Shown: in pieces, positions 5,616 through 63,090 of the stretch
Numbering within the stretch: the stretch's first letter is position 1
How the letters are laid out: every line of letters starts with the position of its first letter
Made by a program: the position numbers and the translations under genes
The notes under the pieces: model-generated
Databases searched by the model: none
Told to the model about the DNA's origin: nothing
Seen by the model: the letters and a program-made list of their open reading frames with translations, nothing else
Assembly (NCBI GenBank): GCA_951406725.2
Contig: OX597825.1
Location: 8,246,001 to 8,310,000 of the forward strand
Direction: 5' to 3'
Length of the DNA: 64,000 bases
Origin: Octopus vulgaris
Taxonomy: Eukaryota

Positions 5616-7400
5616 CTGAAATTCTCTATCAAGTTTAAATACTATGTTAAAAATAGAAACACAGATCTCAGATTGCAATGCGTAGAATATATTTGTAGTT
5701 CTTTGTGGTCGTTACTTGTGGTGTTTGCTACGATCAATATTGAAATTTATCTAATCGAAGGCGATCATTTATAATTTTGAATATTCTGTTTGAGTGGACG
5801 CTTAACCTTATAGTTGCTACTTTCTTCCGATGCATTTTTGCAATTTCTAAAATGCGTGAGTAAAGCCTATCGGAAAGCTAGAAAAATCCAAGTTTATGAG
5901 GTATGTCTACGGAAGCTCGAAGGATACCCCTGTAAGAAATTGGAATTCACTTAGAACCAATCCCTAGGATAATCTAATTTAGTTTTTTCGTCCACGACAG
6001 TACCATTATTTCGTTTGCTAAAATTGCCAGAAGAAATACGATAGCAGATGCTGGAAGCACGAATTACAGCCGAGGATTCCAAAATGCCTTCTGCTTGATT
6101 CGATTCATTGCGATGAAATAATGGAAATCAGAAAATATATCATATGGAACCGTAGTTTATATTGAGAGTTCTATTGATATTCACCCCAAAGCCGCAAAAG
6201 CTGAAGATATCTTTACTGATGGGGAAAGAAATTCTTTTGAAAACATTAAAATAGTACTCGAGAAAGATACAGTAGTAATTGTCTACATTTCTGCAATAGT
6301 AGTAGAATATGGTATTGAAATGTCTACACGTGACCAATCCATCGGGTTCGCACTCATTAAAAGGAATGGACAAACAATAAAAGGAATGGACATTGCTTTG
6401 AACTAACTGCACAAAGCGATCATGCGGACGAAATTGCGTTGTTACGGTATTGAGTTAAAAGGGGGAATCTAACGTGTCTAAGAGTAGATATTACATTTGC
6501 TCACATTACAGCTGTCCACACTTTAGCACTTTAGCAGATACAATTATCAAAGTAGAACATAAGTCGAAAGAAGTGAAACATTTTCAGCATGTCATGACCT
6601 AGATAACGACTTCAGAAAAAGAAGATTAATGACAGCGCAGCTCAACGTACAGCATTGTCTAACATACAGCAACAATACTGTTTTCTCCATTGTTTAGAGA
6701 TTGTTGATGCTAGATACTACGGCATACACACAAAAAGAAAACGCTTCAAAATATCAGTTGGACATTGCATAAACTAGATTATTACCAGCAACACTATGAG
6801 TACAAACAATTGTAATATAACATAAATGCCAAAACAGCAGGAATGGCAAGCAACTTGTGGAAACGAAGATTAGCTTTTATGGAGTTTATGAGATAGTTGT
6901 TGCTAGGGTAACTTGCAGTAAGAGATGAGGAAGGTTGCACTGTTTTAACTACATCAATGCACACGTAATTGACACTGTCATCAATTTGAATTAAAAATCT
7001 GGCCAGATGGAGGTCGGTTTTGGGAATATTCATGTTCATTTATAAAAAGGAAAAAATACACACGCAAATACACTTACACGGACATATGCAGACAAGCATA
7101 AGCATGAATTTATATTTGCATATATTTGTGAACACCTGTACGTAAGCATACATATATAAATGCATTAACCTATCTACATATATTAATATATGATATATAG
7201 TGTTTGTTTGTGTATGCATGTATATCTGTGCAGAAATGAACGCCTGAATAAAAACGTATCTGGTGTCCATGGATATTACAGATTGGATTCTAATCATCCC
7301 ATGTATGCTCACATGTATATCATGCGATAAGAGGAAACACGCGTAGCGATGCATTTGGATATTCCAAAATTTTATCCATGGGTCATTATTGTTATTAATG

Positions 7401-9643: not shown

Positions 9644-9920
9644 AGGCGAGAGAGTGGCAGAATCTTCCTCACGCTGAGCAAAACACTTAGCGTCTGTCTT
9701 TAGATTCTGGGTTCAAATTCTCCTGAGGCGGATTTTTTGCCTTCTCATCCAACCGAGGTCGATTCAATAAGTACCAGTTATACACTGGAGTCGATGTCAT
9801 CGACAAAATCTCCCCCCCCCCATATTTTTGTGCCTATAATAGAAACAATTATTTCTTTTGTTATAAGGCTGCGAGCTGGCAGAATAGTTAGCATGCCAAA
9901 CAAAAAATTAACAGAAATCT
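9644..9920 (+). mobile_element. Group B SINE (9644-9850) plus a second head fragment (about 9866-9920)
   Basis: GGCGAGAGAGTGGCAGAATC...GGGTTCAAATTC...GCCTTCTCATCC...GGTCGA..AATAAGTACCAG; second head GGCTGCGAGCTGGCAGAATAGTTAGC. Confidence 0.65.
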
Positions 9921-10570: not shown

Positions 10571-10856
10571 ATTAATGATTGTATGCGATAATGCCACTGT
10601 CTCATGAATATACAGTTTCTCAGTTTCTCCAACATCAACTGAAGAATTCAGTATAGAATCATTTGGTATCAACTAAAATACAGAATAAAAATTAACCGTA
10701 AAATCGGGACAAATGAAACGTTATCCAAAGTTATCCAGAAACTATAATGAACCAAACGAACATAAACCCACGCGTACACACAGACGTGCCCACACATACA
10801 TGGAAATAGAGGTATGTAATTAGATTTGTATGATTATAAAGATTCATAGAAAATGA
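10571..10856 (+). repeat. 286-bp direct repeat, copy 1
   Basis: Colinear with 13469-13754, no indels, about 11 substitutions by hand count. Confidence 0.92.
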
Positions 10857-13468: not shown

Positions 13469-13470
<2 letters not shown>

Positions 13471-13754
13471 TAATGATTGTATGCGATACTTTCACTGTCT
13501 CACGAATATACAGTTTCTCAGTTTCTCCAATATCAACTGAAGAATTCAGGATAGAATCATTTGGTATCAACTAAAATATAGAATAAAAATTAACTGTGAA
13601 ATCGGGACAAATGAAACATTATCCAAAGTTATCCAGAAACTATAATGAACCAAACGAACATAAACCCACGCGTACACACAGACGTGCCCACACATACATG
13701 GAAATAGAGGTATGTAATTAGATTTGTATGACTATAAAGATTCATAGAAAATGA
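13469..13754 (+). repeat. 286-bp direct repeat, copy 2
   Basis: Matches 10571-10856 at an offset of 2898 bp; begins right after a (CATA)n tract. Confidence 0.92.
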
Positions 13755-16980: not shown

Positions 16981-17211
16981 ATTTCTTTATTGCCCACAAG
17001 GGGCTAAACACAAAGGGGACAAACAAGGACAGGCAAACGGATAAAGTCGATTACATCGACCCCAGTGCGAAACTGGTACTTTATTTATCGACCCCGAAAG
17101 GATGAAATGCAAAGTCGACCTCGGCGGAATTTGAACTCAGAACGTAACGGGAGACGAAATACCGCTAAGCATTTCATCCGGCGCGCTAACGTGTCTGCCA
17201 GCTCGCCGCCT
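16981..17211 (-). mobile_element. Full-length group B tRNA-derived SINE with 17-bp TSD
   Basis: Minus strand GGCGGCGAGCTGGCAGA...GAGTTCAAATTCCGCCGAGGTCGACTTTGC...GGGGTCGATAAATAAAGTACCAG...AATAAAGAAAT; TATATTCACATAAATGT at 16960-16976 and 17212-17228. Confidence 0.92.
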
Positions 17212-17800
17212 TATATTCACATAAATGTCTACAAAAGTAACATTAGACTTTCTTGTAAAAACAAAATTTTGACAAATACTAACATATTTGATGTTTCAGG
17301 CTGGACAACTTTATGAAGTATACAGTATTACACTTACGCATGCATGCATGCATGTATATGTGTGTCTATGCTTGCATGTTCATATCCATTTATTTCTGTA
17401 TGTATGTATGTTTGTATGCCTTAATTCGTTTATAATATGTATTCTTGCTGTTTGAAACAAGTAGATTTCTAACATAGAGACAAAGCTGTATCTCGAAAAA
17501 TTTAGATACCAAGTAAAAGGCAACATTTTAGAAAATTCTAGAATGTATTTACGCACATCTAGTGTTTCATTTACATTTTGTAATCTATAAATTCTATTTT
17601 ATTCCGTCGCATAATTTGCCTGGAATCTTCATCGTTTCAAGATAATCACTAAGACTTAAATATCCTAATTAAATGAAGTAAGCTACGATACGCCGACACA
17701 ATTATACAACCTCTGAACGTAAGATACATTCTGCGCTTTGAAATATTTTAGCGACAGTATTCTCTCTTCTGTTGACTTTAAATTACATGTTCACAAGTAA

Positions 17801-18342: not shown

Positions 18343-18601
18343 ACAATTGCAAAGTGGAAGGTGTTTATAACGCATTTAAGAAACATACAAAAACCGTTAG
18401 ATCCACTTCAACATTTAAATTTAATTTGCCAAAACATTTTCGTCGATTTGGACTGCGACCTGTTCACTGACAAAATTCCGTGCTGCGGCACGGTATTTTG
18501 TGTGTTTCTTAAATGGCTTATAAACACCTTCCACGCTGCAATTGTTCTCGTTCCATCATACGATCTCAGATCAGGTCACTTGCTATGGAAGTACATCTCC
18601 G

Positions 18602-18604
<3 letters not shown>
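18343..18604. mobile_element. Fold-back (inverted-arm) short element carrying a hammerhead-like motif, probably Penelope pLTR-derived
   Basis: Arms ACAATTGC..GTGGAAGGTGTTTATAA..CATTTAAGAAACA / TGTTTCTTAAATGGCTTATAAACACCTTCCACGCTGCAATTGT; central CCGTGCTGCGGCACGG; same family as 40075-40358; lies between (GATA)n and (TA)n. Confidence 0.8.
18425..18474 (-). ncRNA. Type I hammerhead-like motif, G3-C8 core variant
   Basis: Minus strand TTTGTCA-GTGAACA-G-GTCG(CAGTCCAAAT)CGAC-GAAA-ATGT-T-T-TGGCAAA: 7-bp stem I (one G.U), 4-bp stem II, near-palindromic stem III AATGTT. Confidence 0.65.
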
Positions 18605-18684
<80 letters not shown>

Positions 18685-20250: not shown

Positions 20251-21898
20251 CCTCCTATGGGACATGCAAATGAATGTCGTGCTACGAAACCATTTATGCA
20301 TCATCCAGTGGGGGCAGGAGAAAGTTTGCCGCATCATAGTACTGAAAAAGGGCCTTTGGCCTCACTAAACTTTATTACAATATATGTATGACATCTACGT
20401 ATTTATATGTTTGGGATTTTAAGTATGAATGGTCGTCTGTAGTCTATGTGCGTATATAAGTTACGCAAATATAGTCAAATGAAAACAGTTGATCTTCACT
20501 AATTTATTGATTAGATTTGTCGGAAATGAATCATTCATTCAAACTCTTTTCTGGAGAACATTAAGTGTTTCCTGGCTCCTACGTAATTCTTGCAAGTGCA
20601 TCTATAACGATCAATATAAATCAGAATTTTTAATGATAATACTCCAGATATAAGTTTTGCAGTAGCGCTCTGCGATCCACATATTTTCTCTCAAAACTGA
20701 TAAGTTGTTCCTTTTATAGAGAATAATTTAAACACCATTGAATTTGTATTGAGCAGAGTTTTCACTTAGATTTTTCTACACATTTTCATATTAAATTATT
20801 GAATTCGTGATCGAACTTTATTTTTGTTTGTAAACATTCTCAGATATATTTATATGTTAATCTCTTCTCACGAACAGAAGAGTACAGTATTTTGGAGGTA
20901 CTTTTTAGGCGATTTGGGTAGAGTATAGAAATAGATGAGTGACATGTCAAAATAGATTTGGTAAAATTCATATTTGTTCTTATTTTTATAGTTCTTATGG
21001 TTGAAGGTGTTTCTTAAGTGATAAAATAGTACTCATGGTTTGGTCTTACAGCTCTAGCTCTACATTCACATTTACCATAGACAACTGCAGTGGGGTTGAT
21101 GTGTTAAAAATGTAGTTATTATTTATGTTTTTTTTTTGTTAACATCGATGTGGATTTCAGCAAGGGTCCACGCCATTACTTTTTATAACAAAATCATTCT
21201 AAATTATGTAAGTATAATCCACTCATAGATAATTTAGAAATAAACAGACGTCACGAGAGTCATACACTTCCGATCTTTATTGAAGTGTGTAAAAATAGAA
21301 AAATGTTTTTCTGCGGATCATTTGAACGTAGAGGGGAAATATTCAGTATCCAAGAATAATGCATGTTCTGCTTTTCTGTTTTACTGCCGAATATCAGTAG
21401 GGTGCGCACTACACGCAGGATTTCACCAATGTCTATCTGTATATCTGTTTTGTAGTCCATTTACATATTTTATAGCGTTCTGTCTAGACACAGCTGACAG
21501 GCAACGATTTTGTTATACGTTTAATATTTAGTGACACCCTTCAATATTTCTATGTTTGCAAGTTTGACGTCAGATGTTCCAGTTAATGTCAAAACATTTA
21601 TAGGAAATTTCCAAGTCAACTATTGAATGTTGCGATCTGTGATGAATGTTCAATTACAAATAAGATCAAAAGAATAGGTTACTGCTTAAAACTATTCTGT
21701 GATCTGGGTTTCAAATGTTTTATTTATATATATCTACTGTCTGATAGGTTGAAAGTTGCTTTTTCCTGGAAGTTTTAATGACAGAAATTCTATTGGAGTT
21801 GGTTGATAATACTTTGGTTACTTTTGAAAAGTTCCCTCAGAATTCTGAGTAAAAACCAATCATTCGGAATGACGCTACTGCTGTTATTTGAGTATATT

Positions 21899-21984
21899 TA
21901 TTTCTTTATTGCTCACAAGGGGCTAAACATATAGGGGACAAACAAGGACAGACAAAGAAATTAAGTCAATTACATCGACCCCAG
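21899..21984 (-). mobile_element. Group B SINE 3' tail fragment
   Basis: TATTTCTTTATTGCTCACAAGGGGCTAAAC...ACATCGACCCCAG matches the tail of the 16981 copy. Confidence 0.85.
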
Positions 21985-24939: not shown

Positions 24940-26298
24940 CTCGCCACTTCATTCGACGTTGATATCCCCTCACCACTATCCACACCGCCCTTCCCAGAGC
25001 ACGTTCCGTGGATCGTGCATATGCTATCTCTTCCTGCACCCATCTCACCGTCTCTCTGTTTTCCTTCACATCCCACCCCACCACCCCACCTCTTCAACAC
25101 ACCATTCTCTGGGCCTCCCGGCGACTCCAGTTCGACCTTTCAACTTCACCCATCTTCCCTAACCGACCTCTCCCCTCCTTCAAACGAGCCCACAACATCC
25201 GAGACCTCTTGGTCCACAATTTCTTCTCTAACCTAACGTCCCAACCCGGCTCGTTCCCTTGGCCTCGCTCACGCTGCTGCACTTGCTCTTACCACCCTTC
25301 TCACCGGCACCATCATCGACCCTATCACATCACCGACTCCTTCACCTGCACTTCTACCAATGTAATCTACTGTATTTCCTGCTCTCCCTGCCCTTCTCTA
25401 TACAACGGGCAAACGGGACGCCGCTTGGCCGACCGGCTCGTGGAACGCCTCCGGGGCATCTGACTCGGCAATTACACCCCGGTCTCGCGCCATTTCTACT
25501 CTACCGGTCATTCTTGCAACAACTGCCTTTGTTAGGATTGTCTTTGAGCAGGGGCCTTCCGGACTCCCGTTTGCAACGTGAACATGGATTAATCTCTCTT
25601 CGCTCCTTTGCGCTACATGGGTTTAACCCTCCTCCCATGTTCATCTAACCTCTTCCCCTCTTCATCTAACCTCCTCCCCTCTCATCTCTCCCACCCACCT
25701 TTCTTCAATTGCTCCGACTCCTACTTCGTGTCTTCACTCCTACTCTCCTTTTCCCTTCTTTTTACTCCTACCCACTTTCTCGCTTCCCCCTTCATCGTCA
25801 CCCTTCCCTCGAAACTCCACCCCACCCCTATGCAATCTAACCGCAACTTTCCTATCCATCCCATCACACCACACCACACACCACTACACCATACACCACC
25901 ATACCACACAACACATCACATCACACCAGCACTGACCACTTCCCAGCCCCACATCTACATACCTACACATCCGCACATGCACACGTCAAGGTCACCAGAG
26001 CTCTTCCACACGCACATACATACTCTCTTGTACACACGCACGCGCACCTTCGTTTTGAGATCACCACTACTTTATTAACTCCCTTTCTTCGTAGCTCTCC
26101 TGTGTGACGCGTCATGATAGATCACTAGCCACTACACATTCTTTATGTTCTCTCCTTGTTTCTTTCTGTGTTCTTTTCTGTCGAAGAGTGTAGGCTCCGA
26201 ACGTTAAAGACTTTTTCACTTCCCGAGCGTTAAACTAATACATCTGTTTGTTGTCTACACCACCTGTCTTCGTATTTTGTTTTGTTGTGCATTCTCCC

Positions 26299-26368
<70 letters not shown>

Positions 26369-26600
26369 ATATATATGTTTATATACACCTATGTTGATTC
26401 GCTAGCTTCTGCACGCATTTTTTTCTCTCCTTGTTTCTCTCCGTGTTTCTTTTCTGTGTATCTTTCTGTTGAAGAGCGTAGGCTCAAAACGTAAAATACT
26501 TGTTTTATTTATATTCCTGGGCGCCATACTAATACAATTGTTTGTTTGTTTTCCACCTGCCTTCGTCTTTTGTTTATTTTCATAAAGCTTCCCGTTACAT
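24940..26600 (+). mobile_element. 5'-truncated Penelope-like element (Neptune-type): GIY-YIG endonuclease remnant plus two tandem pseudo-LTRs
   Basis: Within 25008-25463: PSFKRAHNIRDLLVH, Cys-rich linker RCCTC, and FTCTSTNVIYCISCSPCPSLYNGQTGRRLADR (GIY-YIG signature). A C-rich 3' region follows, then related repeats at about 26110-26300 and 26400-26600, each with a hammerhead-like core. Confidence 0.88.
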
Positions 26601-27134
26601 ATATATATATATCCATACACATGTACATGTAAAGATATTCATATATTTATGAATATATGTCTGTATTTGTGTTTGTAAGTGTGTATATGTATGTGTTTGT
26701 GTGTGTACCTGAAACTTTAGAAATCATTCTTATATATGAAATATGTCGACGCACATAAAGACTATTTACACTTTCATTCGTACTTTCGTAGTCTGTTAAC
26801 TCGTATGTCAGGCCAACAACTTGCTATCTTCTTCAAATTCATGAACCATATTATTACCCGTCTTTCAGTATGTGGTATTTATACAGAAAATGAATCCTTG
26901 TTCTCAAGACAATAGGAGGAACAGTGATTCGCATTCATACCCTGAAGAGTGTAAATGCTAGTTTTTCATTGTATTTCTGCCCTCATATTTTTTATATCCT
27001 CTGCAGAAACATCTCAAAAACATACTCAGAGTTTCCCGTTTCTATTTGTCAGACAGTTCTGCTTTCTTTCTTTATATGTATATATATAATCATAATGATA
27101 ATACTAATACTACTACTACTAATAATAATAATAA

Positions 27135-30615: not shown

Positions 30616-30718
30616 GATATATTTCAATATTCAGCTATGAAAAATCCTTCGTTGTTGTGAATATGCCAGAAATATCGCTTAAGGGTAACTTGATACAAAA
30701 ATCCAAGCATGCATCAGT

Positions 30719-30830
30719 ATAAACAACAAACAGATGTATTAGTTTAACGCTCGGGAAGTCTTTTACGTTTCGAGCCTACGCTCTTCGACAGAAAGGAACA
30801 CAGAAATAAACAGGGAGGAAAAATAGAAAC
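30719..30830 (-). mobile_element. Penelope pLTR fragment with family-consensus hammerhead-like motif (30760-30795)
   Basis: Minus strand CTTT-CTGTCGA-A-GAGC(GTAG)GCTC-GAAA-CG-T-A-AAAG; flanks match the pLTR copies at 26110-26300 and 46078-46262. Confidence 0.8.
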
Positions 30831-31479
30831 ATTGCTTGAAGTTTATTGGAAATGATATGTTTTGATTCACATACTACATAGTTTCCACACCGAGGATTCA
30901 TCGGGGAGCGAAATTTTCAACTGGAAGTGTTTTCTAGATATTTAAAAAAGAAAATAAACGAATGTATGTGATGATTGATAGTGCATATATATAATCATAC
31001 GCTGTATGCGGATATCTACTTAAATCTTGAAACCTGTTTGCACGTATTTAAGGATGAAGTTGGTCAGCGTAAACGTATTATTGTAATCCTACATGACATT
31101 TAATTAAATCCAGAATGGACAATTGTCTATGCATTCTTTCTTCATGAAACATTTGCGGTCTGCGGTAGAAGGAAACTGAAGTGGTCCTTTGCATCCGTGT
31201 TAAGCAGGCCTTTAAACATTGTTTATCCAGTCATACATTCTCATTTCTGAGGAGACGTAACTGCCATTCTTTGAACACATTGCAGGATGATTCAACTTGT
31301 TAAGAGTAGTTAAGTAGATATTTACTTATATCATTGTAATGCACTGAAATCAGTCTCCGTAGAGAGAAGACACTTCCCACTCGTTGCACTTTCCCTGCAT
31401 GCACTTGGCCAGAGAACGGTCCTGTTTAAACGAAGAAATTCTTGGAACGATTCTCTTTAATACCATGATCCGGAGAAGT

Positions 31480-36710: not shown

Positions 36711-37192
36711 TCTGTGAATGTGTATGTGGCGCGCTGCATACACACACTGATAAATATGTGTATACAAATGAGTGTATGTGAGCATGTGTGCTTAATAAGT
36801 ATATGGAGGCTCTAAATGATATTTCCACATAAAACTGAAATGCGAATACACATACAGCCACTTGCATCAGCAACTGCAAAAACATACCGATAGAGACAGA
36901 CAACAAAAACATTAAACAAATACCTAAAATGCCGATGAAAACCAGGTCTAAGTAGGGGCTTCAGTTATTTCTCATTTTGACGTGTCATGATACTTTTGGA
37001 ATAAACTTTATCATAATGGATAATCAAGAAAATGATGGTTGTCTTAAAACAGGCCGAGAATGCACTACTGTTTAAAAGGCACTACGGCTTTACTGTCCAT
37101 CTCTCTGTTTATTTCTCTATCTACCTACCTACCAGTCTACCTCCTTCTCTACACACGAAGACCCAGACACATAACATATTATATATATTATT

Positions 37193-37582
37193 TTATTCTT
37201 TTACAATTTTCGGTCATCTGACTGCAACCATGCTGGAGCACCGCCTTTACTCGAGCAAATCGAAACGAGGACTTATTCTTTGTAAGCCTCGTAATTATTC
37301 TAGCGGCGTGCTTTGCCGAATCGCTATGTTACAGGGACATAAACAAACCAGCATTGGTTGACAAGCGATGATGTTGGGAGAACAAACACAGAGACACAAA
37401 TACGCAAACAAACACACACACATACGACAGTCTTCTTACAGTTTCCGTCTAACAATCCACTCACAAGGCTTTGGTCGGCTTGAGGCTATAGTAGAAGACA
37501 CCTGCCGAAGGTGCCACGCAGTGGGACTGAACTCGAAACCATGAGGCTGGTAAGCAATTTACTTACCACACAGCCTCTCCTT
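37193..37582 (-). mobile_element. Group A SINE (diverged)
   Basis: Reverse complement aligns over its full length with 57159-57574. Confidence 0.85.
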
Positions 37583-39469: not shown

Positions 39470-40039
39470 ATGATACTACCACCACCACCACCACTACTAC
39501 TTGTGGTACTACTACTACATCAATAACAACTACTACTACAACTAGTAGTGTAGGTGTTCCCACTTCTGCTGCTACTGTCAATACTACTGTTACTACTGCT
39601 GCTGCTGCCGCCTCCCCCTCCATATCCACTATCACCTCCGCCACCATTTCCGTCGGCATCCTCATCATTTATTTGGCCGTGTTCTTCAGTACATAAACTA
39701 CAGCTCATATTTCCATAATTAAGCTTTCTTCTTGAGTGCCATGATGTCCCAAAATATTACAAACGCCTCTTTAGCATTTGAATGCCATTTATAAGTTTTA
39801 ATCTATATTTTGTTTTCATACAGTAAAAATATATTTTAATATATTTCGTTGTTAACACCTTTCAACTTATAGAGTAACAGGAATTTGCCAGTATGTGTAT
39901 ATCTACTTATCTATCTATATCAATACACATATCTATATGAGTGTGCAAGCGTGTGTGCTTGTCTGTATCTACGTATATATATATATTATTATATTTCGGA
40001 ATGGTCATTTTGCCAGTTTAGCACAACAAATATATAAAC

Positions 40040-40074
<35 letters not shown>

Positions 40075-40077
<3 letters not shown>

Positions 40078-40358
40078 CGGAGATGTACTCGCATAGCAAG
40101 TGATTTGATCTGATATCGTGTGCTGAAACGAAAACAATTGCAGCGTGGAAGGTGTTTGTAAGCCATTTAAGAAACACACAAAAGCCGTTCGATTCGCTGA
40201 CAAAAATCCGTGCTGCAGCACGGATTTTTGTCAGTGAACAGGTCGCGGATTTTAGCGACGAAAATATTTTGCCAAATTAAACTTAAATGTTGAAGTGAAT
40301 CGAACGGCTTTTTTGTGTTTCTTAAATGGCTTACAAATACCTTCCACGCAGCAATTGT
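40075..40358. mobile_element. Fold-back short element with a perfect 38-bp central palindrome and a hammerhead-like motif
   Basis: CTGACAAAAATCCGTGCTGCAGCACGGATTTTTGTCAG (40197-40234); outer inverted arms; inserted in (TA)n; homologous to 18343-18604 in the opposite orientation. Confidence 0.85.
40227..40276 (+). ncRNA. Type I hammerhead-like motif, G3-C8 core variant
   Basis: TTTGTCA-GTGAACA-G-GTCGC(GGATTTTA)GCGAC-GAAA-ATAT-T-T-TGCCAAA: stem I 6/7 bp, stem II 5 bp, palindromic stem III AATATT, UUU triplet. Confidence 0.68.
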
Positions 40359-40409
40359 ATATATATATATGTATATATATATGTATATATATATGTATAT
40401 ATATATATG

Positions 40410-40474
<65 letters not shown>

Positions 40475-40493
40475 GTATGTATATATATATATA

Positions 40494-40556
<63 letters not shown>

Positions 40557-41177
40557 ATGTATCTATGTATGTATTATCTCTTCCTCTATGTGTTATTATG
40601 ACTAAATGGGAGAGTATTCAGCAAATGCTTGAGGTGTTTCAAACAACTTTTAGTCTGAACGACTGGACAATGCAGTAATGTCTTTGAATCTCGGAGCCAG
40701 GGGAATTGGCAGAGTTCTGAGATCGGTGATTTTTAATGGATGCAGCAACGTAAAAATGATGGCCGTATTGCAATATCATCTTTCGTGAGAGAGATGTCCG
40801 TAAAAAAAAAACAAAGAAAAATGTGAGTGGGAGTGTCATGGATTATTTACCATTTAATAATAAATATAGATAAAATGAATTGTGATTCATATTGCAAAAC
40901 AAAATATTACATATCTAAGCGATTTCATTAGACATAACATAGAAAGCAAAGGATTTGTTATTTATATTAAGGAATGATGTATCTTCATTTTTGATCAATT
41001 ATTTTCGACATTTGATCAATAATTACGCCATAAAAAATGGCGTAACAAGGTCTCGTGTTACACCAGCACTGTATTGTACATATTATTATTAATATATAGG
41101 ATTTTATTTGAAAGAAAGATGATCATTTTATTTCGGAGGTGTAAAAGCCATTGCACAAATTAAACGTACATGTAATG

Positions 41178-41590
41178 CAGCGAGTTGGCAGAATCGTTAG
41201 CAAGCGGGGCAAAAGGCTTGGCGTCATTTCGCCTGAGGTGCACTTTGTCTTTCATCATTTTGGGGTCGATGAAATAACTACCAGTGGATTTGCTCCCACC
41301 TACCAAATTTCAGTCCTTGTACTTATAGCAAAAAACATTAATTAAACGTACAAGTAAGGTGACGAGCTGGAAGAATCGTAAGCACGCTGGGCGAAATGCC
41401 TAGCAGTCTTTCGTCCGTCTTCAAGTTCTGAGTTCAAATTTCGCCCAGGCCGGCTACGCCTTTCATTCTTTCGGGTGGGTAAAAGAAGCACCAGTGAAAC
41501 TGTGGTGTCGATGTAATCGGGGACATGCCATCCCGCCCACCCCACTCCCCCAAAAATTCAGGCCTCTTGCCTTTTGTACAAAAGATTTAT
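41178..41590 (+). mobile_element. Two adjacent group B SINE copies (about 41178-41335 with deletions; 41357-41590)
   Basis: GCGAGTTGGCAGAATCGTTAGC and GGTGACGAGCTGGAAGAATCG heads, GAGTTCAAATT B box, GCCTTTCATTCTTTCGGG body. Confidence 0.75.
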
Positions 41591-44805: not shown

Positions 44806-46077
44806 TTATATAATCATACATATATGTCTGTGTTTGTCTATTGTTTATTTATATACATGTATGTATGTATAAGGAATACATCAAATCTATGGCTATTAAT
44901 ATTTTTACATAATGTTCATGTGTTTCACACTACAGGCAAACATTGATTATGCGAAGTTATCTCTGAAAAGTTTTTCTTTATTGTACATGGACTTTTTTCC
45001 TGGATGCATTAGCGCCAAAATATTTTCAATAGAAACATTATTAAGTTTGCTCCCACCATCACACCTCACTGTAATTGCCGATTTCTGTCTATAGTAACGC
45101 GAATTTGCAAGATGATATATTGGGATATCCCCCTGGAGTAGGCCTGGTGGACAGCTCTTTGCCTATGTAACATATAACCTACTGTCCGGCGAGTCCTTCT
45201 ACAGCTCGGAGTAGATTCAGCCTTGCTACATGGGCCTGTTTTAACAAAACTCTTCCTCAACACTTTTCCATTTCGGAGTGAGTTAGAGCTGAACTATCAG
45301 ACCCAGACTGATTGACCGTTAGTTTGAAATATGGGGTATCAGCAGAATGTCCTCTAACCACCTACAACGTTCGGGCTATTGTGTATATAAATGTGTAATG
45401 AAAACCAGTAATAGTTGCAGGTCTTACATACGGACAACAGTAAATCTATTAAAGCGCAGCAACACCGTATACAGACCCGACGAGTTGTAAGTAGTCTTCG
45501 AAATTGTATTGGGTCAAGGAAATACTATTTGGTTGTCGTGTATTAGCAAAGTTGTGCTAAGGCAATTTCAGCCAATTAAAGCTTTGCACGTCAGTATTTC
45601 GTGTATTTTCTTTTTCATATTCATTTAGATTAATAAGGTTGAAAATAATTAGCTGGCAGTTAGCAGAAGACATCGTCGCAATCAACAGCCATCCTCGGCT
45701 AGTCATTGGAAGGACGCTGTCGTTTAACAGTATTTCTTTATCTTGAACATCTGTGTTATTTCACCGGCTTAACGCAGTAATCTCCGGGATTACATTACGC
45801 TCGCCTGTCGAGTCTAATCATTCCCTATTGACGGAATGAAGAGATTCCTGTTTAATCCCTGTTTATTTCTTACTACTTTTATCGTGGTATGTTTCTACCC
45901 ATTTGTGTAATAGTAAGTCCAAAGGCCTTCTTTGACTCCTACATACGGCAACTCGCTACTCACATTGCAACCCAAATAAATTATGATGTTTGTCATAATA
46001 TAGCCTTCTGAAGTATTTTCTCAATGCGTCACAGATGCATTGTGTATTTATTTGGCACCTTCTGTCCAGCATTCGCC

Positions 46078-46262
46078 ATGATAGATCGCAAGCCACTAAA
46101 ACTTTTCTATTTTCTCTCCCTGTTTATTTCTGTGTTCCTTTCCGTCGAAGAGCGTAGGCTCGAAACGTAAAAGACTTTCTCATTTCTCGAGCGTTAAACT
46201 AATACATCTGTCTGTTGTTTACACTGCCGTTTTCGTCTTTTTTTCTTTTACTAATTCTCATT
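46078..46262 (+). mobile_element. Solo Penelope pLTR with hammerhead-like motif (46138-46173)
   Basis: CATGATAGATC..AGCCACTA start shared with 26113; CTTT-CCGTCGA-A-GAGC(GTAG)GCTC-GAAA-CG-T-A-AAAG. Confidence 0.82.
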
Positions 46263-46637: not shown

Positions 46638-47955
46638 ACACAGACACACACGCACACACATATATATATGCAACAACTACGCCACAACTAGAAAGCAGTA
46701 ACAAAGAATTACGCTAGACTCCTAGTCAAAATCAGAGCTCCAATAAAGGTCAAGGACACAATACCAATACATGGTGTAATGTACACTACTAAACCAACGT
46801 GCAGCAAAAACGAAACAAAACAAAAAGAACCACTTAACTAGTCTATCACTCAGAGAATGAAAATTCAACTTAGAACAATGAGAACGCAAGATATAACGTT
46901 TATAGACACAAGCATATCAAGCATATACCTTAATCATCAGCTGCTTAAAGGATATTATTGTTCCAATATGTGAGCACCCCCCTACAATCCGACGGTATCA
47001 ACAACATCATTAAAAACATTCACGCTGCTAGGGAATCAATAGACGAGAAGCAGGAACAGAACTTTTCCGTGATGTCTAATTTACGTCTATAACTGCTTAT
47101 TGTTACAAATGCAAACATCAGATATTAAACACCCATCGGTTTCTGCTTAAGGCTAGGAAGCATAGAAATTAAAAATAACACCTATAAAATGTAGTTAAGT
47201 CTCCGAAAACGATAGTGTTACCTCATATATTGCACAACTTTATTCGTACCAGAGAACCAAACATATTGAATACAATCTACCAAACCTAGTCGAAAGCACA
47301 TATTACCAATACGTTACAGAAAATAATAACAAACATCAGTGGACTTAAAATATTTACGTTAAGTACAGAATGTAGACTAGTAATCATCGCTGATCCACAA
47401 TGAATTTTTTCAAACAGGAAAGCATAATCTAAATGAACCAAACATAAAGTAGCGGGAAAATATATCACTTCAACTATTAGGCTTCAATCGATCTCCCACC
47501 ACTCAAGATGGCAGTAAAAGAGCACAAATCAATATCTATTGAATATAATCCTGAATTATAGAAAATAAATTTAAATGTATATTTCATCTAAAAGTATGAA
47601 AATAACATAGAATAATATCGAATAATATAAAACTGACTAAAGCATCCGAATTGTAACGATAATAGTAGAATACTAAAAACATGTGAACATTATTGAAACG
47701 ATCAAATTCTAAACGAAATGAATAACATATCAGTGAGTCATCAGTGATTAAATGGCTTTGATTTGGGAATGAGGCACTGTAAACATATCACTTTTCAATA
47801 ATTAATAATTACTTTAATTATAGAACGTATGTAAACCTAAATATATCTACATATATGTATTCTACTATTAACTAAAACAAACAAATTGTTTCAAAATATT
47901 CCCTTCATAAAAGGACTATGTTTGTGCGTATGTAGGTATTTACAGATACAATCAT

Positions 47956-48366
47956 TTACTCTTGTACTCTTTTACTTGTTTCAGTCATTTGACTGCGGCC
48001 ATGCTGGAGCACCGCCTTTAGTCGAGCAAATCGACCCCGGGACTTATTCTTTGTAAGCCCAGTACTTATTCTATCGGTCTCTTTTGCCGAACCGCTAAGT
48101 AACGGGGACATAAACACACCAGCATCGGTTGAGAAGCAATGCTAGGGGGACAAACAGACACACAAACATACACACACACACTTATATATATATACATATA
48201 TACAACAGGCTTCTTTCAGTTTCCGTCTCCCAAATCCACTCACAAGGCATTGGTCGGCCCGGGGCTATAGCAGAAGACACTTGCCCAAGATGCCACGGAG
48301 TGGGACTGAACCCGGAACCATGTGGTTTGTTAGCAAGCTACTTACCACACAGCCACTCCTGCGCCT
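47956..48366 (-). mobile_element. Full-length group A tRNA-derived SINE
   Basis: Near-identical reverse complement of 57159-57574; A and B boxes, CTTGGGCAAGTGTCTT (CORE-like), internal microsatellite, (GTAAAAGA)n tail. Confidence 0.93.
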
Positions 48367-48719
48367 ATGTATCTATGTACGCATTTATGTATCTATGTAC
48401 GCATATTTGCTGCAAAATAGATTGGTTCATATTTTTATTATTTCAATCCAGCTAAAAGCGTCGCACAAAAAGATTCGTTAGCAGGTTTGATGAAAATAAT
48501 TAAAGAATAATAAACTAGGCATTTTTTGTCTCCCTATACGTCCTGTGTTCGAAATCTTCAGCGGTTGCATTGCTATTTATCGTTTCAGCTCGGTAAAAAT
48601 ACGTACAGTATGAACATCAGGTTGATGCATCGAGTCCCGACTCGTCCGAAATTGCTGGAGTTGCGCCAATATACATATTTTTGCCGTGTTATTTATACAT
48701 ATTATTAAAATACACATAC

Positions 48720-51382: not shown

Positions 51383-51475
<93 letters not shown>

Positions 51476-51476
51476 A

Positions 51477-51897
51477 GACGCAGGAGTGGCTGTGTGGTAA
51501 GTAGCTTGTTTACCAACCACATGGTTCCGGGTTCAGTCCCACTGTGTGGCACCTTGGGCAAGTGTCTTCTACTATAGCCTCGGGCCGACCAAAGCCTTGT
51601 GAGTGGATTTGGTAGAAGGAAACTGAAAGAAGCCCGTCGTATATATGTATATATATATATATGTGTGCGTGTGTGTTTGTGTGTCTGTGTTTGTCCCCCT
51701 AGCATTGCTTGACAACCGATGCCGGTGTGTTTATGTCCCCGTTACTTAGCGGTTCGGCAAAAGAGACCGATAGAATAAGTACTGGGCTTACAAAAGAATA
51801 AGTCCCGGGGTCGAGTTGCTCGATTAAAGGCGGTGCTCCAGCATGGCCCTCAGCCAAATGACTGAAACAAGTAAAAGAGTAAAAGAGTAAAGAGAGT
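51477..51897 (+). mobile_element. Full-length group A tRNA-derived SINE
   Basis: GCAGGAGTGGCTGTGTGGTAAG (A box), GGTTCAGTCCC (B box), tail GGCGGTGCTCCAGCATGGCC...GAAACAAGTAAAAGAG. Confidence 0.93.
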
Positions 51898-55600: not shown

Positions 55601-57158
55601 CAAGAGCGAGACGAATAGACCTATGACCTCTCTGCAGCAAGCATCTACTGGCTATTGTACCCCGTTTAAATATGACCTGAACTCCGCTTAACTCCTTATC
55701 CTCTGGTAATTAATATCTTAATTCAAATTGTCGAATCCATAACAATGACTGGCAAATCCTTTTATGAATTTCTCACTTAAAGCTTTCGTTCTTTGCATTA
55801 AATAGTAAAGTAGTACAAATAATCCGTAAATACCCGTGTATATTGGACAGCGGAAATGATATTTCCGCAGCGGAAATGATATTTATAATGAGATTTATGT
55901 TTAAGCCAACTTAAACCTAATGCAATTTAATGCAAGTCAGTCTCCTTTAAATTCTTTGACAATCGCAAATCCTTCCCCACCTTTCTCCCAATGGACAACG
56001 ATACAGGTACTTCACTTCTGTTTTAATTCTCCTTTCGCCTCATAAATTTTCATACGAGAGTTTCCTATTTCTTCTTAGTATCACATAATGTGATAAATAT
56101 TAGGAAATACTATTATAACTGGTAAGTGATAAATACGAAACATATTATAGTGATATAAATAAAAAGAAAATATCAGTTATCTCCTTGAAAGATAGCGAGA
56201 ACTATATAATAATTGTATGCAAAGCATCCTCAAGACACGGTCATCTATGTTTAATATATTTCCTGACGAAACTAAGGAGCCAATGATAAAAAGAAATGTA
56301 GTTCTCGTGCGACAGTGTAAGAACCAACTGTAAAGACTGGATGTTTTTTTTGAGACAGATTTCCACCACAAACACCTTCCCAGCTGATGCAATTAAAAGC
56401 AAGAAATGATGCGAGGATATGTAAAAAAAAAACATCCTGAGAAAAGCAGAATAGACAACATAGCTTTATATAGATGGCATTCTTCTTTGTGAAAGATCAG
56501 TTGATCCACTTTGCTCTTTCTTCTTATCTTTGTATTTATAAACTATTTTCGATTCATCTTCATCCCGATATTATATGTTTGTTTATTGGGGAAATCAGAG
56601 TTGTTGGGGGAATCAGAGTCCATTGACATTTATAAATGAAAATGAAAACATGACTTTGCTGTAGTTTTGATTTTGTCTTCTTTTTGTTGGCGGTTTGTAA
56701 ATATGGCTGTACTTCTTACTGGTGTACTTTGTATTTTAATGTTGTGATTTATTCTCCCGGAAAACAGAACATCACCACGCAATTACTTATGCCACTGAAA
56801 TACCTCAAATTTTTCCGACTGACATACTCCGATACTATGAAAATCTAAATCTGAAATTTATAAATGTTATATTCAACACCACTTTGTAGCCGGAGAATCT
56901 CTATTCAAATCGAAAGCAATTTCCGTAAGAATGAGATCGAAATTCTACTAATAGCTTCTTACTCAAATGTACTAACATGTATAGAACGTTGAGCTTTTAT
57001 TTTTTATAATTAATACTAACATCCAGTGTGTCTTTGCGCCTAAATACACTAGATCAGTATTTGGTGGAAACTAGTTATTATTTACAGCCAAATGTGTTCT
57101 TTTTAATCTTTTCGTTATCGCTAAACACTGCCATCTTACATTCTTTTATTTTGGTGAT

Positions 57159-57574
57159 AGGCGCAGGAGTGGCTGTCTGGTAAATAGCTTGTTTACCAAC
57201 CACATGGTTCCAGGTTCAGGCCCACTGCGTTGCACCTTGGGCAAGTGTCTTATACTATAGCCTCGGGCCGACCAAAGCTTTGTGAGGGGATTTGGTAGAC
57301 GGAAACTGAAAGAAACCCGTCGTATATATATGTATATGTGTGTGTGTGTGTGCGTGTATGTTTGTGTTTGTCCCCCTAGCATTGCTTGACAACTGATGCT
57401 GGTGTGTTTATGTCCCCGTCATTAGTGGTTCGGCAAAAGAGACCGATAGAATAAGTACTGGGCTTACAAAGAATAAGTCCCGGGGTCGAGTTGCTCGATT
57501 AAAGGCGGTGCTCCAGCATGGCCGCAGTCAAATGACTGAAACAAGTAAAAGAGTAAAAGAGAGAGTAAAGAGTA
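57159..57574 (+). mobile_element. Full-length group A tRNA-derived SINE
   Basis: Same structure as 51477-51897; possible TSD TGGTGATA at 57152-57159 and 57581-57588. Confidence 0.93.
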
Positions 57575-61554: not shown

Positions 61555-62121
61555 ATTATTATTATTATCAAAGCAGTTGTTAGGGATTTTATCATCATCA
61601 TCATCATTGGAGTTGCTCTTATTTTTTTTATCAACAAACGTTTCCTTTACAAGTCCGTATTATTCATAGCAACATATGTCCAGGGTATATGGGGTTAATC
61701 CGGTCCTCAAAAATGGATTGAGATGCAAGATTATATCGAAAACTGATTACAATAAACATATGCTAACAAATCGATTGAAACGTTTCTTATGTATTCATCG
61801 AACAAGTGGACCGTTTGTCATATTTTATTGCTGCCACTGATGTTTATACCGAATCGGCTCTTGAGTCAAGTAAAATTGGAACGTCAAAGGATTATCATCG
61901 TAGCCTTTCTATAATGAAGGTTTATAAGATTTTATGGGACTGTTAACTTAATTAAAACGTATTCCCCATTACTGCCGACGAAATACACTGCTCTGCACTG
62001 AAGCACAATCAAGAATTTCCCATTGATTTTCATATGGATTCCCAGCGAAAAGTGTACGCTTTTCTTCTCAGTCTAATCAATATCTGTTAGCTCCTTTGAA
62101 ATCGAATAATATTACAATACT

Positions 62122-63090
62122 TATTTCTTTATTACCCACAAGGGGCTAAACATAGAGGGGACAAACAAGGACAGACATAGGTATTACGTCGATTACATCG
62201 ACCCCAGTGCGTAACTGGTACTTAATTTATCGACTCCCGAAAGGATGAAAGGCAAAGTCGACCTCGGCGGAATTTGAACTCACAACGTAACGGCAGACGA
62301 AATACCTATTTATTTACTGACCACAAGGGGCTAAACACAGAGAGGACAAACAAGGACAGGCATAGGTATTACGTCGATTACATCGACCCCAGTGCGTAAC
62401 TGGTACTTAATTTATCGACCCCGAAAGGATGAAAGGCAAAGTCGACCTCGGCGGAATTTGATTTCGCAACGTAACGGCAGACGAAATACCAATTTCTTTA
62501 CTAACCACAAGGGGCTAAACACAGAGAGGACAAACAAGGACAGACGTAGGTATTACGTCGATTACATCGACCCCAGTGCGTAACTGGTACTTAATTTATC
62601 GACTCCGAAAGGATGAAAGGCAAAGTCGACCTCGGCGGAATTTGAACTCACAACGTAACGGCAGACGAAATACCTATTTATTTACTAACCACAAGGGGCT
62701 AAACATAGAGGGGACAAACAAGGACAGACATAGGTATTAAGTGGATTATATCGACCCCAGTGCGTAACTGGTACTTAATTTATCGACTCCGAAAGGATGA
62801 AAGGCAAAGTCGACCTCGGCGGAATTTGAACGCACAACGTAACGGCAGACGAAATACCTATTTCTTTACTAACCACAAGGGGCTAAACACAGAGGGGACA
62901 AACAAGGACAGGCAAATGGACTAAGTTGATTATATCGACCCCAGTGCGTAACTGGTACTTAATTTATCGACTCCCGAAAGGATGAAAGGCAAAGTCGACC
63001 TCGGCAGAATTTGAACTCAGAACGTAACTGCAGACGAAATACGGCTACGCATTTCGCCCGGCGTGTAAACGTTTCTGCCAGCTCGCCGCC
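62122..63090 (-). mobile_element. Group B SINE multimer: one head plus five tandem 184-185-bp body/tail units
   Basis: CCACAAGGGG recurs at 62136, 62321, 62505, 62689 and 62873; single head GGCGGCGAGCTGGCAG at 63090; ACAATACT at 62114-21 and 63095-102 (candidate TSD). Confidence 0.93.

What the first reader, a model, noticed from the sequence alone, without database searches (positions are those of the whole stretch)
40075..40358. Fold-back element, copy 2: perfect 38-bp palindrome overlapping the start of a G3-C8 hammerhead, inserted in (TA)n
Seen: the palindrome's right arm includes the 5' strand of hammerhead stem I (TTTGTCA), so hairpin and ribozyme folds are mutually exclusive in a transcript. 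The left arm lacks the ribozyme, the gap being bounded by TTCAC/TTCGC microhomology. Stem II differs in loop from the 18425 copy yet stays paired. Established: Penelope-like elements often leave inverted pLTR structures. Inference: a tiny TA-targeting, ribozyme-bearing non-autonomous element formed by self-primed fold-back synthesis.
Basis: partly seen in the sequence, partly recalled or inferred. Interest (0 to 1): 0.72.

Follow-up and report, generated by a model that had tools for sequence, protein, structure and literature searches.

The report
Penelope stub with swapped-core hammerhead
This 284-base fold-back is a stub of a Penelope-type jumping gene, likely in an octopus genome: two head-to-head copies of the element's end that carry the first 31 codons of its protein gene and a hammerhead-ribozyme motif whose two paired core letters are swapped (G3-C8), a variant predicted but not shown to cut.

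Summary
In detail: a perfect 38-bp palindrome (40197-40234), a G3-C8 minimal hammerhead (40227-40276) and (TA)n flanks. It is the end module (pLTR) of a Penelope-like retroelement. The inverted arm plus a one-sided 59-nt tail encodes 31 codons that are 28/31 identical to the start of an Octopus protein. Overlapping Octopus fragments link that protein to RT + GIY-YIG ORFs. Contigs from four public runs show a high-copy family. None of 15 core positions varies. The forward arm has a 5' boundary near 40214, and the inverted arm joins it from many different points. So the fold-back is likely built anew at each insertion and is not a propagating unit or a hairpin/ribozyme switch. Inverted pLTRs, tails and 38-bp junction palindromes are in print (PMC3846280, PMC8557442). 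This scan noted similar stubs in shark-like genomes, and G3-C8 cores in phages and a protist element. What is new is a family-wide natural G3-C8 core in an animal retroelement. Rfam misses it, and four literature searches did not find it, but one key paper was unavailable. Cleavage is untested.

The parts
40030..40075 (.). (TA)n target, left flank; any target-site duplication cannot be resolved inside the microsatellite
40075..40133 (-). One-sided 'tail' (59 nt), codons 12-31 of the Penelope-like ORF; present only on the inverted arm in both window copies
40074..40166 (-). First 31 codons of the element's ORF (ATG at 40166-40164), 28/31 identical to residues 1-31 of P0006 (Octopus sinensis XP_029654200.2)
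40134..40198 (-). Inverted, 5'-truncated copy of the pLTR 3' end
40193..40198 (.). Microhomology junction (AGTGAA at 40233-38 and 40294-99; one private change at 40196) where the inverted arm skips the hammerhead
40197..40234 (.). Perfect 38-bp palindrome: head-to-head junction centred on the self-complementary TGCA (40214-40217)
40214..40358 (+). Forward pLTR, from the family's common 5' boundary to the tail-less 3' end
   Evidence: tables 5 and 7
40227..40276 (+). Minimal type I hammerhead motif: stem I 40227-33/40270-76, core G3UGAAC8A 40234-40, extra G 40241, stem II 40242-46/40255-59, GAAA, palindromic AAUAUU 40263-68, predicted cut after U17 (40269)
40326..40358 (+). First 11 codons of the ORF in the forward pLTR
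40358..40574 (.). TA-rich right flank
18343..18604 (-). Second, older copy: same centre, same outer ends and tail, different microhomology junction (TTTTGT); G3-C8 core at 18467

Best explanation
This is a short insertion of the end module (pLTR plus tail) of a Penelope-like retroelement, likely built at the moment of insertion from two cDNAs joined head to head and likely unable to spread further as a unit. Shown: the module holds a G3-C8 minimal hammerhead motif followed by the first 11 codons (forward arm) or 31 codons (inverted arm with tail) of a Penelope-type ORF, sits in (TA)n, and has variable inner junctions across the family. Inferred, by analogy with the Anolis Poseidon protein: the parent protein nicks both strands of (TA)n and starts reverse transcription at two sites inside the ORF start, 59 nt apart, which gives a tail on one side only. 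One cDNA runs through the uncut hammerhead to the RNA's 5' end near 40214. The other is truncated or skips the hammerhead at a 6-bp microhomology. The two 3' ends anneal at the self-complementary TGCA, which makes a perfect palindrome with a recurring centre. The hammerhead is predicted to be a weak, dimer- or protein-assisted ribozyme in the parent RNA; in this copy it is predicted dead (private stem I mismatch; the hairpin dominates).
For: ORF link: a profile of the 31-aa frame hits Octopus bimaculoides A0A0L8I3W9 at residues 1-24 (E 7e-10, best of 5 hits among 1.84 billion proteins; the other 4 match short internal repeats). P0006 begins with the whole frame (28/31) and continues. P0006 overlaps P0007 (78% over 151 aa). 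P0007 hits 29 proteins of 680-1222 aa (best E 4e-71). [quoted passage not shown] P0006 residues 15-222 align to the N-termini of 4 of the 29 at E 3e-17 or better in that set. Family: 15551, 10785, 7451 and 1277 contigs laid in four runs. 0 of 15 core positions are among the 38 variant rows. 9 of the 15 joints shown (of 114) link 40214-40222 to nine different points. Loose ends at 40214 number 102, 112, 82 and 10, with upstream agreement of only 0.42-0.60. Per-insertion arms: 4/83 and 7/65 mismatches within copies against 23/143 and 9/59 between copies. Both polymorphic sites covered in all four arms agree within a copy and differ between copies. Published anatomy matches: pLTR holding the first 12 codons (22 with tail), inverted shorter pLTR, 38-bp 5' palindrome (PMC3846280); tail equals the stretch between two RT starts, both strands nicked and extended, uncut RNA is the substrate (PMC11167929).
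Against: No full-length parent was found. The Octopus proteins stop at or before RT motif 3, so the endonuclease is seen only in relatives at 37-41% identity. Pfam support is weak: RVT_1 in 3 of 20 and GIY-YIG in 1 of 20 scanned, all below the curated cut-off. The joining mechanism cannot be told from fold-back priming or later deletion by sequence alone. A 3-nt-shorter centre in 5 and 4 contigs of two runs (table 4) fits either. Both window copies have the inner palindrome although few contigs cover it, so its frequency is unknown. Only 15 of 114 joints and 24 of 791 loose-end rows were displayed. The 5' boundary is not shown to be a transcription start. The tail (59 nt) is longer than the 30-40 nt in print. 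No cleavage data.
Confidence: 0.75

Rival explanations
1. Same Penelope-like parent, but the inner palindrome comes from self-priming: the forward cDNA snaps back at its 3' end, copies 15-23 nt of itself, then anneals to the truncated opposite cDNA at the 6-bp microhomology.
For: Explains the apparent deletion without a jump. Both copies have a short inner arm joined by a 6-bp microhomology. Short inverted pieces at other 5' ends appear (tables 5c, 7), and the 3-nt-shorter centre is the expected snap-back product with a 3-nt loop (inference). Self-priming is proposed in PMC3846280.
Against: The window's centre has no spacer. The family's letters upstream of 40214 end in AGA, so a snap-back here would need untemplated bases. 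Two-strand priming is shown in vitro for a relative.
Confidence: 0.35
2. A short non-autonomous master (forward pLTR plus tail, no full ORF), transcribed from its own promoter, supplies the RNA; the copies form a SINE-like family mobilised in trans.
For: Common 5' boundary and very many contigs. Non-autonomous pLTR derivatives are described (PMC8557442 passages; bioRxiv 10.64898/2026.07.22.740005).
Against: In both window copies the arm with the 5' end lacks the tail, and the arm with the tail lacks most of the 5' part, so neither can template a tailed daughter. Octopus proteins continue in frame beyond the tail. Internal RT initiation on a full-length RNA already predicts such stubs.
Confidence: 0.2
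3. A MITE or other DNA element whose inverted arms are TIRs and which transposes as one unit.
For: 112-bp hairpin (z = -19.7), TA targets, same outer ends in both copies.
Against: The repeats are not terminal on the left (59-nt tail outside). Inner junctions vary. The arms encode the start of an RT-linked ORF.
Confidence: 0.03
4. The palindrome is a selected hairpin/ribozyme switch.
For: The two folds share the stem I strand.
Against: The hairpin is favoured by 10-12.5 kcal/mol. Zero mismatches in 19 pairs is expected 39% of the time at this copy's arm divergence. The other copy has 2 mismatches in 15 and a different arm length.
Confidence: 0.03

Closest known systems
Inverted-pLTR insertions of endonuclease-bearing Penelope elements in Adineta vaga (Arkhipova et al. 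2013, PMC3846280; parts 1-4 of 5 read) and Fig. 2 of Craig et al. 2021 (PMC8557442; passages)
   Same: Head-to-head pLTRs, shorter inverted copy, one-sided tail, pLTR containing the first codons of the ORF, palindrome at the junction (a 38-bp one in Pen3a), microhomology junctions, AT-rich or (TA)n targets.
   Different: No ORF body between the pLTRs here; 59-nt tail against 30-40 nt; very high copy number; G3-C8 core.
[quoted passage not shown]
   Same: Extra nucleotide between 9 and 10.1, G10.1-C11.1, short palindromic helix III, mostly solo genomic copies.
   Different: Core pair is G3-C8. That paper reports C3-G8 and U3-A8 (Cercyon). Stem I is 7 bp.
Poseidon of Anolis carolinensis, PAc (Frangieh et al. 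2024, PMC11167929; parts 1-2 of 4 read)
   Same: Hammerhead next to the ORF start; tail inside the ORF start; insertions made from uncut RNA.
   Different: PAc has C3-G8 (the engineered C3G/G8C double mutant partly rescues cleavage). Its ATG lies inside the ribozyme; here it lies 56 nt below the predicted cut. Relatives here have a Neptune/Nematis-type cysteine linker.
Non-LTR retrozymes (bioRxiv 10.64898/2026.07.22.740005; part 1 of 5 read)
   Same: Small, non-coding, pLTR-derived, type I hammerhead.
   Different: Retrozymes are head-to-tail tandems with a ribozyme in each unit; the two copies here are head-to-head with one ribozyme.

Membership tests
Penelope-like element, C-terminal EN+ | ORF with PLE-type RT and C-terminal GIY-YIG endonuclease | tested here: inconclusive
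   The ORF start is in the element and chains to Octopus fragments reaching RT motif 3. RT core and GIY-YIG are seen only in 37-41% relatives. No full-length parent in hand.
Penelope-like element, C-terminal EN+ | pLTR includes the first codons of the ORF | tested here: met
   11 codons in the forward arm, 31 with tail
Penelope-like element, C-terminal EN+ | Optional tail at one end | tested here: met
   59 nt, one side only, 2 of 2 window copies; tail-less AT-rich loose ends at 40137 in 2 of 4 runs among the rows shown
Penelope-like element, C-terminal EN+ | Inverted, variably 5'-truncated copy next to the pLTR | tested here: met
   9 of 15 displayed joints link 40214-40222 to nine different points
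Penelope-like element, C-terminal EN+ | Hammerhead motif in the pLTR | tested here: met
   variant core
Penelope-like element, C-terminal EN+ | Target-site duplication | not testable with these tools
   Both copies lie in microsatellites
Neptune or Nematis clade | CX2-5CxxC linker before the endonuclease; RT phylogeny | tested here: inconclusive
   Linker present in 4 of 4 relatives read. No tree with named references was built; the parent's own C-terminus is unseen.
Minimal type I hammerhead | Core CUGANGA...GAAA...UH with a 3-8 pair | tested here: met
   All positions present with the 3-8 pair swapped to G-C; 0 of 15 core positions variable at 3% or more in 4 runs. The literal CUGANGA string is not met, and Rfam gives no hammerhead hit.
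Minimal type I hammerhead | Stems I and II, palindromic helix III | tested here: met
   Stem I 7 bp in the family (A or G at 40272), 6 of 7 in this copy; stem II 5 bp; AAUAUU self-duplex is marginal, -0.2 kcal/mol
Minimal type I hammerhead | Self-cleavage | not testable with these tools
   No assay; contigs cannot show RNA ends
MITE / TIR transposon | Terminal inverted repeats at both ends and constant internal structure | tested here: not met
Non-LTR retrozyme | Head-to-tail tandem units, each with a hammerhead | tested here: not met
   0 of 2 window copies; not tested genome-wide
Naiad or Hydra consensus families of Craig et al. 2021 | Sequence match to the published consensi | tested here: not met
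   8 of 10 exact element motifs have 0 occurrences in the supplement; the other two occur only in the Chlamys file

The most novel reading that the evidence does not exclude
An octopus Penelope-like lineage has fixed a working G3-C8 hammerhead across thousands of copies. It would be a natural swapped-core ribozyme in an animal genome that Rfam and CUGANGA-based descriptors cannot see, so some retroelement families scored as ribozyme-less may carry such variants. Its many junctions would also give a genome-scale record of two-strand, two-start Penelope insertion.
Probability: 0.45. Interest if true: 0.62.

Novelty: new variant of a known kind. Interest (0 to 1): 0.43.

Why it matters
The architecture is known, so the fold-back itself is ordinary Penelope debris. 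Two things have value. First, a compensated double change in the hammerhead core is kept family-wide, which argues that the ribozyme fold was under selection in the parent. That bears on the open question of what PLE hammerheads do, since insertion does not need cleavage in vitro (PMC11167929). It also shows a blind spot: the descriptors in PMC8557442 search for CUGANGA, and Rfam found nothing here. Second, a high-copy family with two RT start sites, a common 5' boundary and scorable junction alleles lets one test twin-cDNA joining against self-priming from genome data alone.

Tried and rejected
No whole genome is held for this window, so copies could not be collected with their flanks. Rfam: 0 hits at gathering score for the window; 15 weak hairpin matches and no hammerhead family at E up to 10 for the element. 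DNA pattern for core plus stem II: 0 in viral contigs; 3 in metagenome contigs, all GC-rich chance matches without stem I. A word-indexed protein search with the short frame found nothing among 83 candidates; the unindexed profile search succeeded. Related loci: 0 of 6 candidate stretches in viral contigs; 1 of 20 in genome contigs (L004), a PLE-like fragment that ends about 330 nt after its ORF, with no hammerhead found. ESM Atlas: P0001 best score 0.75, uninformative; P0007 0.97 to eukaryotic DUF8422 clusters (16-41% of members), no function. No solved structure for P0008. Summed contig depth falls sharply over the inner left arm (0.3-0.8% at 40206 relative to 40225) and declines from the 3' end to the 5' end. 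I do not count this as evidence: contig depth is no copy number, hairpins may be lost in libraries, and 2 of 2 window copies have the arm. Run X15 is only guessed to be RNA, so transcription is not claimed. A dimer co-fold did not give the hammerhead dimer as its lowest-energy form. The degraded Penelope-like remnant at 24963-26620 is unrelated to this element (best E 0.2). Lunse et al. 2017 on PLE hammerhead variants is not held; one supplement file of PMC4209133 could not be searched. Either may already list G3-C8.

Full report
Observation. The palindrome at 40197-40234 is perfect over 38 bp and is the only one of 15 palindromes of 16 bp or more in the window that is not A/T-microsatellite sequence. 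The element has one other copy in the window, 18343-18604, 80% identical and in the opposite orientation. A type I hammerhead descriptor that allows any 3-8 pair gives 3 hits: the G3-C8 cores at 40234(+) and 18467(-), and an unrelated C3-G8 hit at 6201. Six simulated sequences gave about 0.17 G-C hits per 64 kb. The motif has a 7-bp stem I, core GUGAACA, an extra G, a 5-bp stem II, GAAA, a palindromic AAUAUU and U17. These are the traits listed for minimal hammerheads of Penelope-like elements (PLEs) in PMC4209133 (parts 1-2 read). Rfam finds no hammerhead here.

Anatomy. Read from left to right: (TA)n; a 59-nt stretch found on this side only; an inverted copy of the 3' end of the right arm; a 6-bp microhomology junction; a 19-bp inverted copy of the 5' end; then the forward arm with the hammerhead; (TA)n. 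The 18.4-kb copy has the same ends, tail and centre but a different junction (TTTTGT). Arms within a copy differ at 4 of 83 and 7 of 65 positions, while the copies differ at 23 of 143 (forward arms) and 9 of 59 (tails). Two family-polymorphic sites are covered in all four arms (40158/40333 and 40206/40225), and both agree within a copy and differ between copies. The arms of each insertion therefore likely came from one template, though gene conversion could mimic this. At 5% arm divergence a flawless 19-bp arm is expected 39% of the time, so the perfection needs no selection.

The family. Of 24 runs listed, 20 hold the stretch or part of it, under several coded organism labels. I laid 4 of them: 15551, 10785, 7451 and 1277 contigs mapped. 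This is not a copy number; with 2 copies in 64 kb (4-113 per Mb) I infer thousands of copies or more. None of 15 core positions, G3 and C8 included, is among the 38 variant rows at 3% or more. Variation inside the ribozyme falls in loop II (40249-40253), at one CpG (40245) and at 40272, where A (79-88%) or G (12-21%) both pair with U40231; the C of this copy is private. Nine of the 15 joints displayed (of 114) connect 40214-40222 to nine different points of the inverted arm. The largest loose-end rows displayed in the three DNA-like runs (24 of 791 rows shown) are at 40214 (102, 112, 82 contigs), with poorly agreeing upstream sequence (0.42-0.46) that ends in AGA. No pile-up at the predicted cut site is displayed. 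So the forward arm has a common 5' boundary within a few bases of 40214, and the inverted arm is variably truncated. Contig counts favour unique junctions, so a conserved upstream extension in a parent is not excluded.

The parent. The inverted arm plus tail holds an open frame of 31 codons in both copies. A profile of it hits residues 1-24 of an Octopus bimaculoides protein (E 7e-10; the other 4 of 5 hits are short internal repeats). That protein leads to P0006 (O. sinensis), which begins with the whole frame (28 of 31 identical; tblastn maps it to 40166-40074 and 18513-18605 only) and continues in frame, and to P0007 and P0037 (O. vulgaris; 78% over 151 residues). P0007 hits 29 proteins of 680-1222 residues (best E 4e-71). 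[quoted passage not shown] P0037 is 41% identical to one of them over 473 residues, and P0006 residues 15-222 align to the N-termini of 4 of the 29 at E 3e-17 or better. Pfam support is weak: RVT_1 in 3 of 20 and GIY-YIG in 1 of 20, below cut-off. The element is thus the pLTR and tail of a PLE, and the host is very probably an octopus (inferred from the named proteins). A full-length parent was not found and the clade was not fixed by a tree.

How it likely works. In the Anolis Poseidon protein both target strands are nicked and extended, reverse transcription starts at two sites inside the ORF start, the tail is the stretch between them, and uncut RNA is the main substrate (PMC11167929, parts 1-2 read). 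Applied here by inference: one cDNA starts at codon 11 and runs through the hammerhead to the RNA's 5' end; the other starts at codon 31 on the opposite strand and is truncated or skips at a microhomology; their 3' ends anneal at the self-complementary TGCA at 40214-40217, a few bases inside the 5' boundary. This yields a spacer-less palindrome whose centre recurs without the unit being inherited. It fits a 3-nt-shorter centre seen in 5 and 4 contigs (table 4) but would need untemplated bases for the centre seen here. Later deletion from a longer palindrome gives the same product. Neither arm of either window copy holds 5' end, ribozyme and tail together, so these copies are likely dead ends.

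Hairpin against ribozyme. Stem I pairing probability is 0.74 for this copy's motif alone, 0.007 from the family 5' boundary, and 0.0 with the left arm; the hairpin beats the hammerhead-constrained fold by 12.5 (inner palindrome) or 9.8 kcal/mol (whole element). A transcript starting at the family boundary would not include the left arm. There is no sign of a switch.

Comparison and novelty. Inverted pLTRs, one-sided tails, ORF-containing pLTRs and junction palindromes, one of them 38 bp, are described (PMC3846280 parts 1-4; PMC8557442 passages). Natural U3-A8 cores are described (PMC4209133; PMC3088659 passages). In what I read, G3-C8 appears only as an engineered variant with partial or context-dependent activity (PMC11167929; PMC3884650 passage). 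Four searches for a natural G3-C8 core found none, and a review's passages do not mention one (PMC6155905). Lunse et al. 2017, the most relevant paper, is not held (title seen only in a reference list), and most subscription journals are not searched. The family matches no Naiad or Hydra consensus by exact motif. An O. vulgaris repeat paper lists 190 Penelope-like families without mention of ribozymes (PMC13282606 passages and supplement search), so the family may already be in a repeat library unnamed. This scan's own unchecked notes describe similar stubs in shark-like genomes and G3-C8 cores in phages and a protist PLE; my reading was recorded before those look-ups.

Verdict. A real feature and a new variant of a known kind. 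The fold-back is ordinary PLE insertion debris. The family-wide G3-C8 core and the 59-nt tail are the new details. Interest 0.43.

Noticed in passing
window 24963-25660 (+): Degraded GIY-YIG endonuclease end of another Penelope-like element, broken by frameshifts and stops. The Neptune label is from recalled motifs; Pfam gave no hit.
   Followed up: partly
window 26105-26290, 26420-26600, 46070-46260 (+), 30705-30835 (-): A second pLTR-like family of four copies with a minimal hammerhead-like motif whose core reads CUGU(C/U)GA, that is U in place of A6, in all four; one lies behind the remnant above.
   Followed up: partly
P0006 (XP_029654200.2): The gene model fuses the PLE ORF start (residues 1-222) to a methyltransferase domain (243-310): a chimeric annotation or an exonised element.
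   Followed up: no
window 6201 (+): Isolated C3-G8 hammerhead descriptor hit with two mismatched stems, at about the chance rate.
   Followed up: no
window 62116-63042; related pieces at 16983-17212, 21894-21984, 41356-41519, 9691-9804: Five head-to-tail 184-bp units of a SINE-like repeat that is also dispersed in the window.
   Followed up: no
window 37183-37581, 47954-48376, 51466-51894, 57157-57572: About 400-bp dispersed repeat with two conserved halves around an internal microsatellite.
   Followed up: no
window 10571-10856 and 13469-13754: 286-bp direct repeat, 96% identical, 2.9 kb apart.
   Followed up: no
L004:2-2310: A frameshifted Penelope-like ORF fragment on a 2.7-kb contig of a bacterial metagenome-assembled genome, likely host contamination.
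   Followed up: partly
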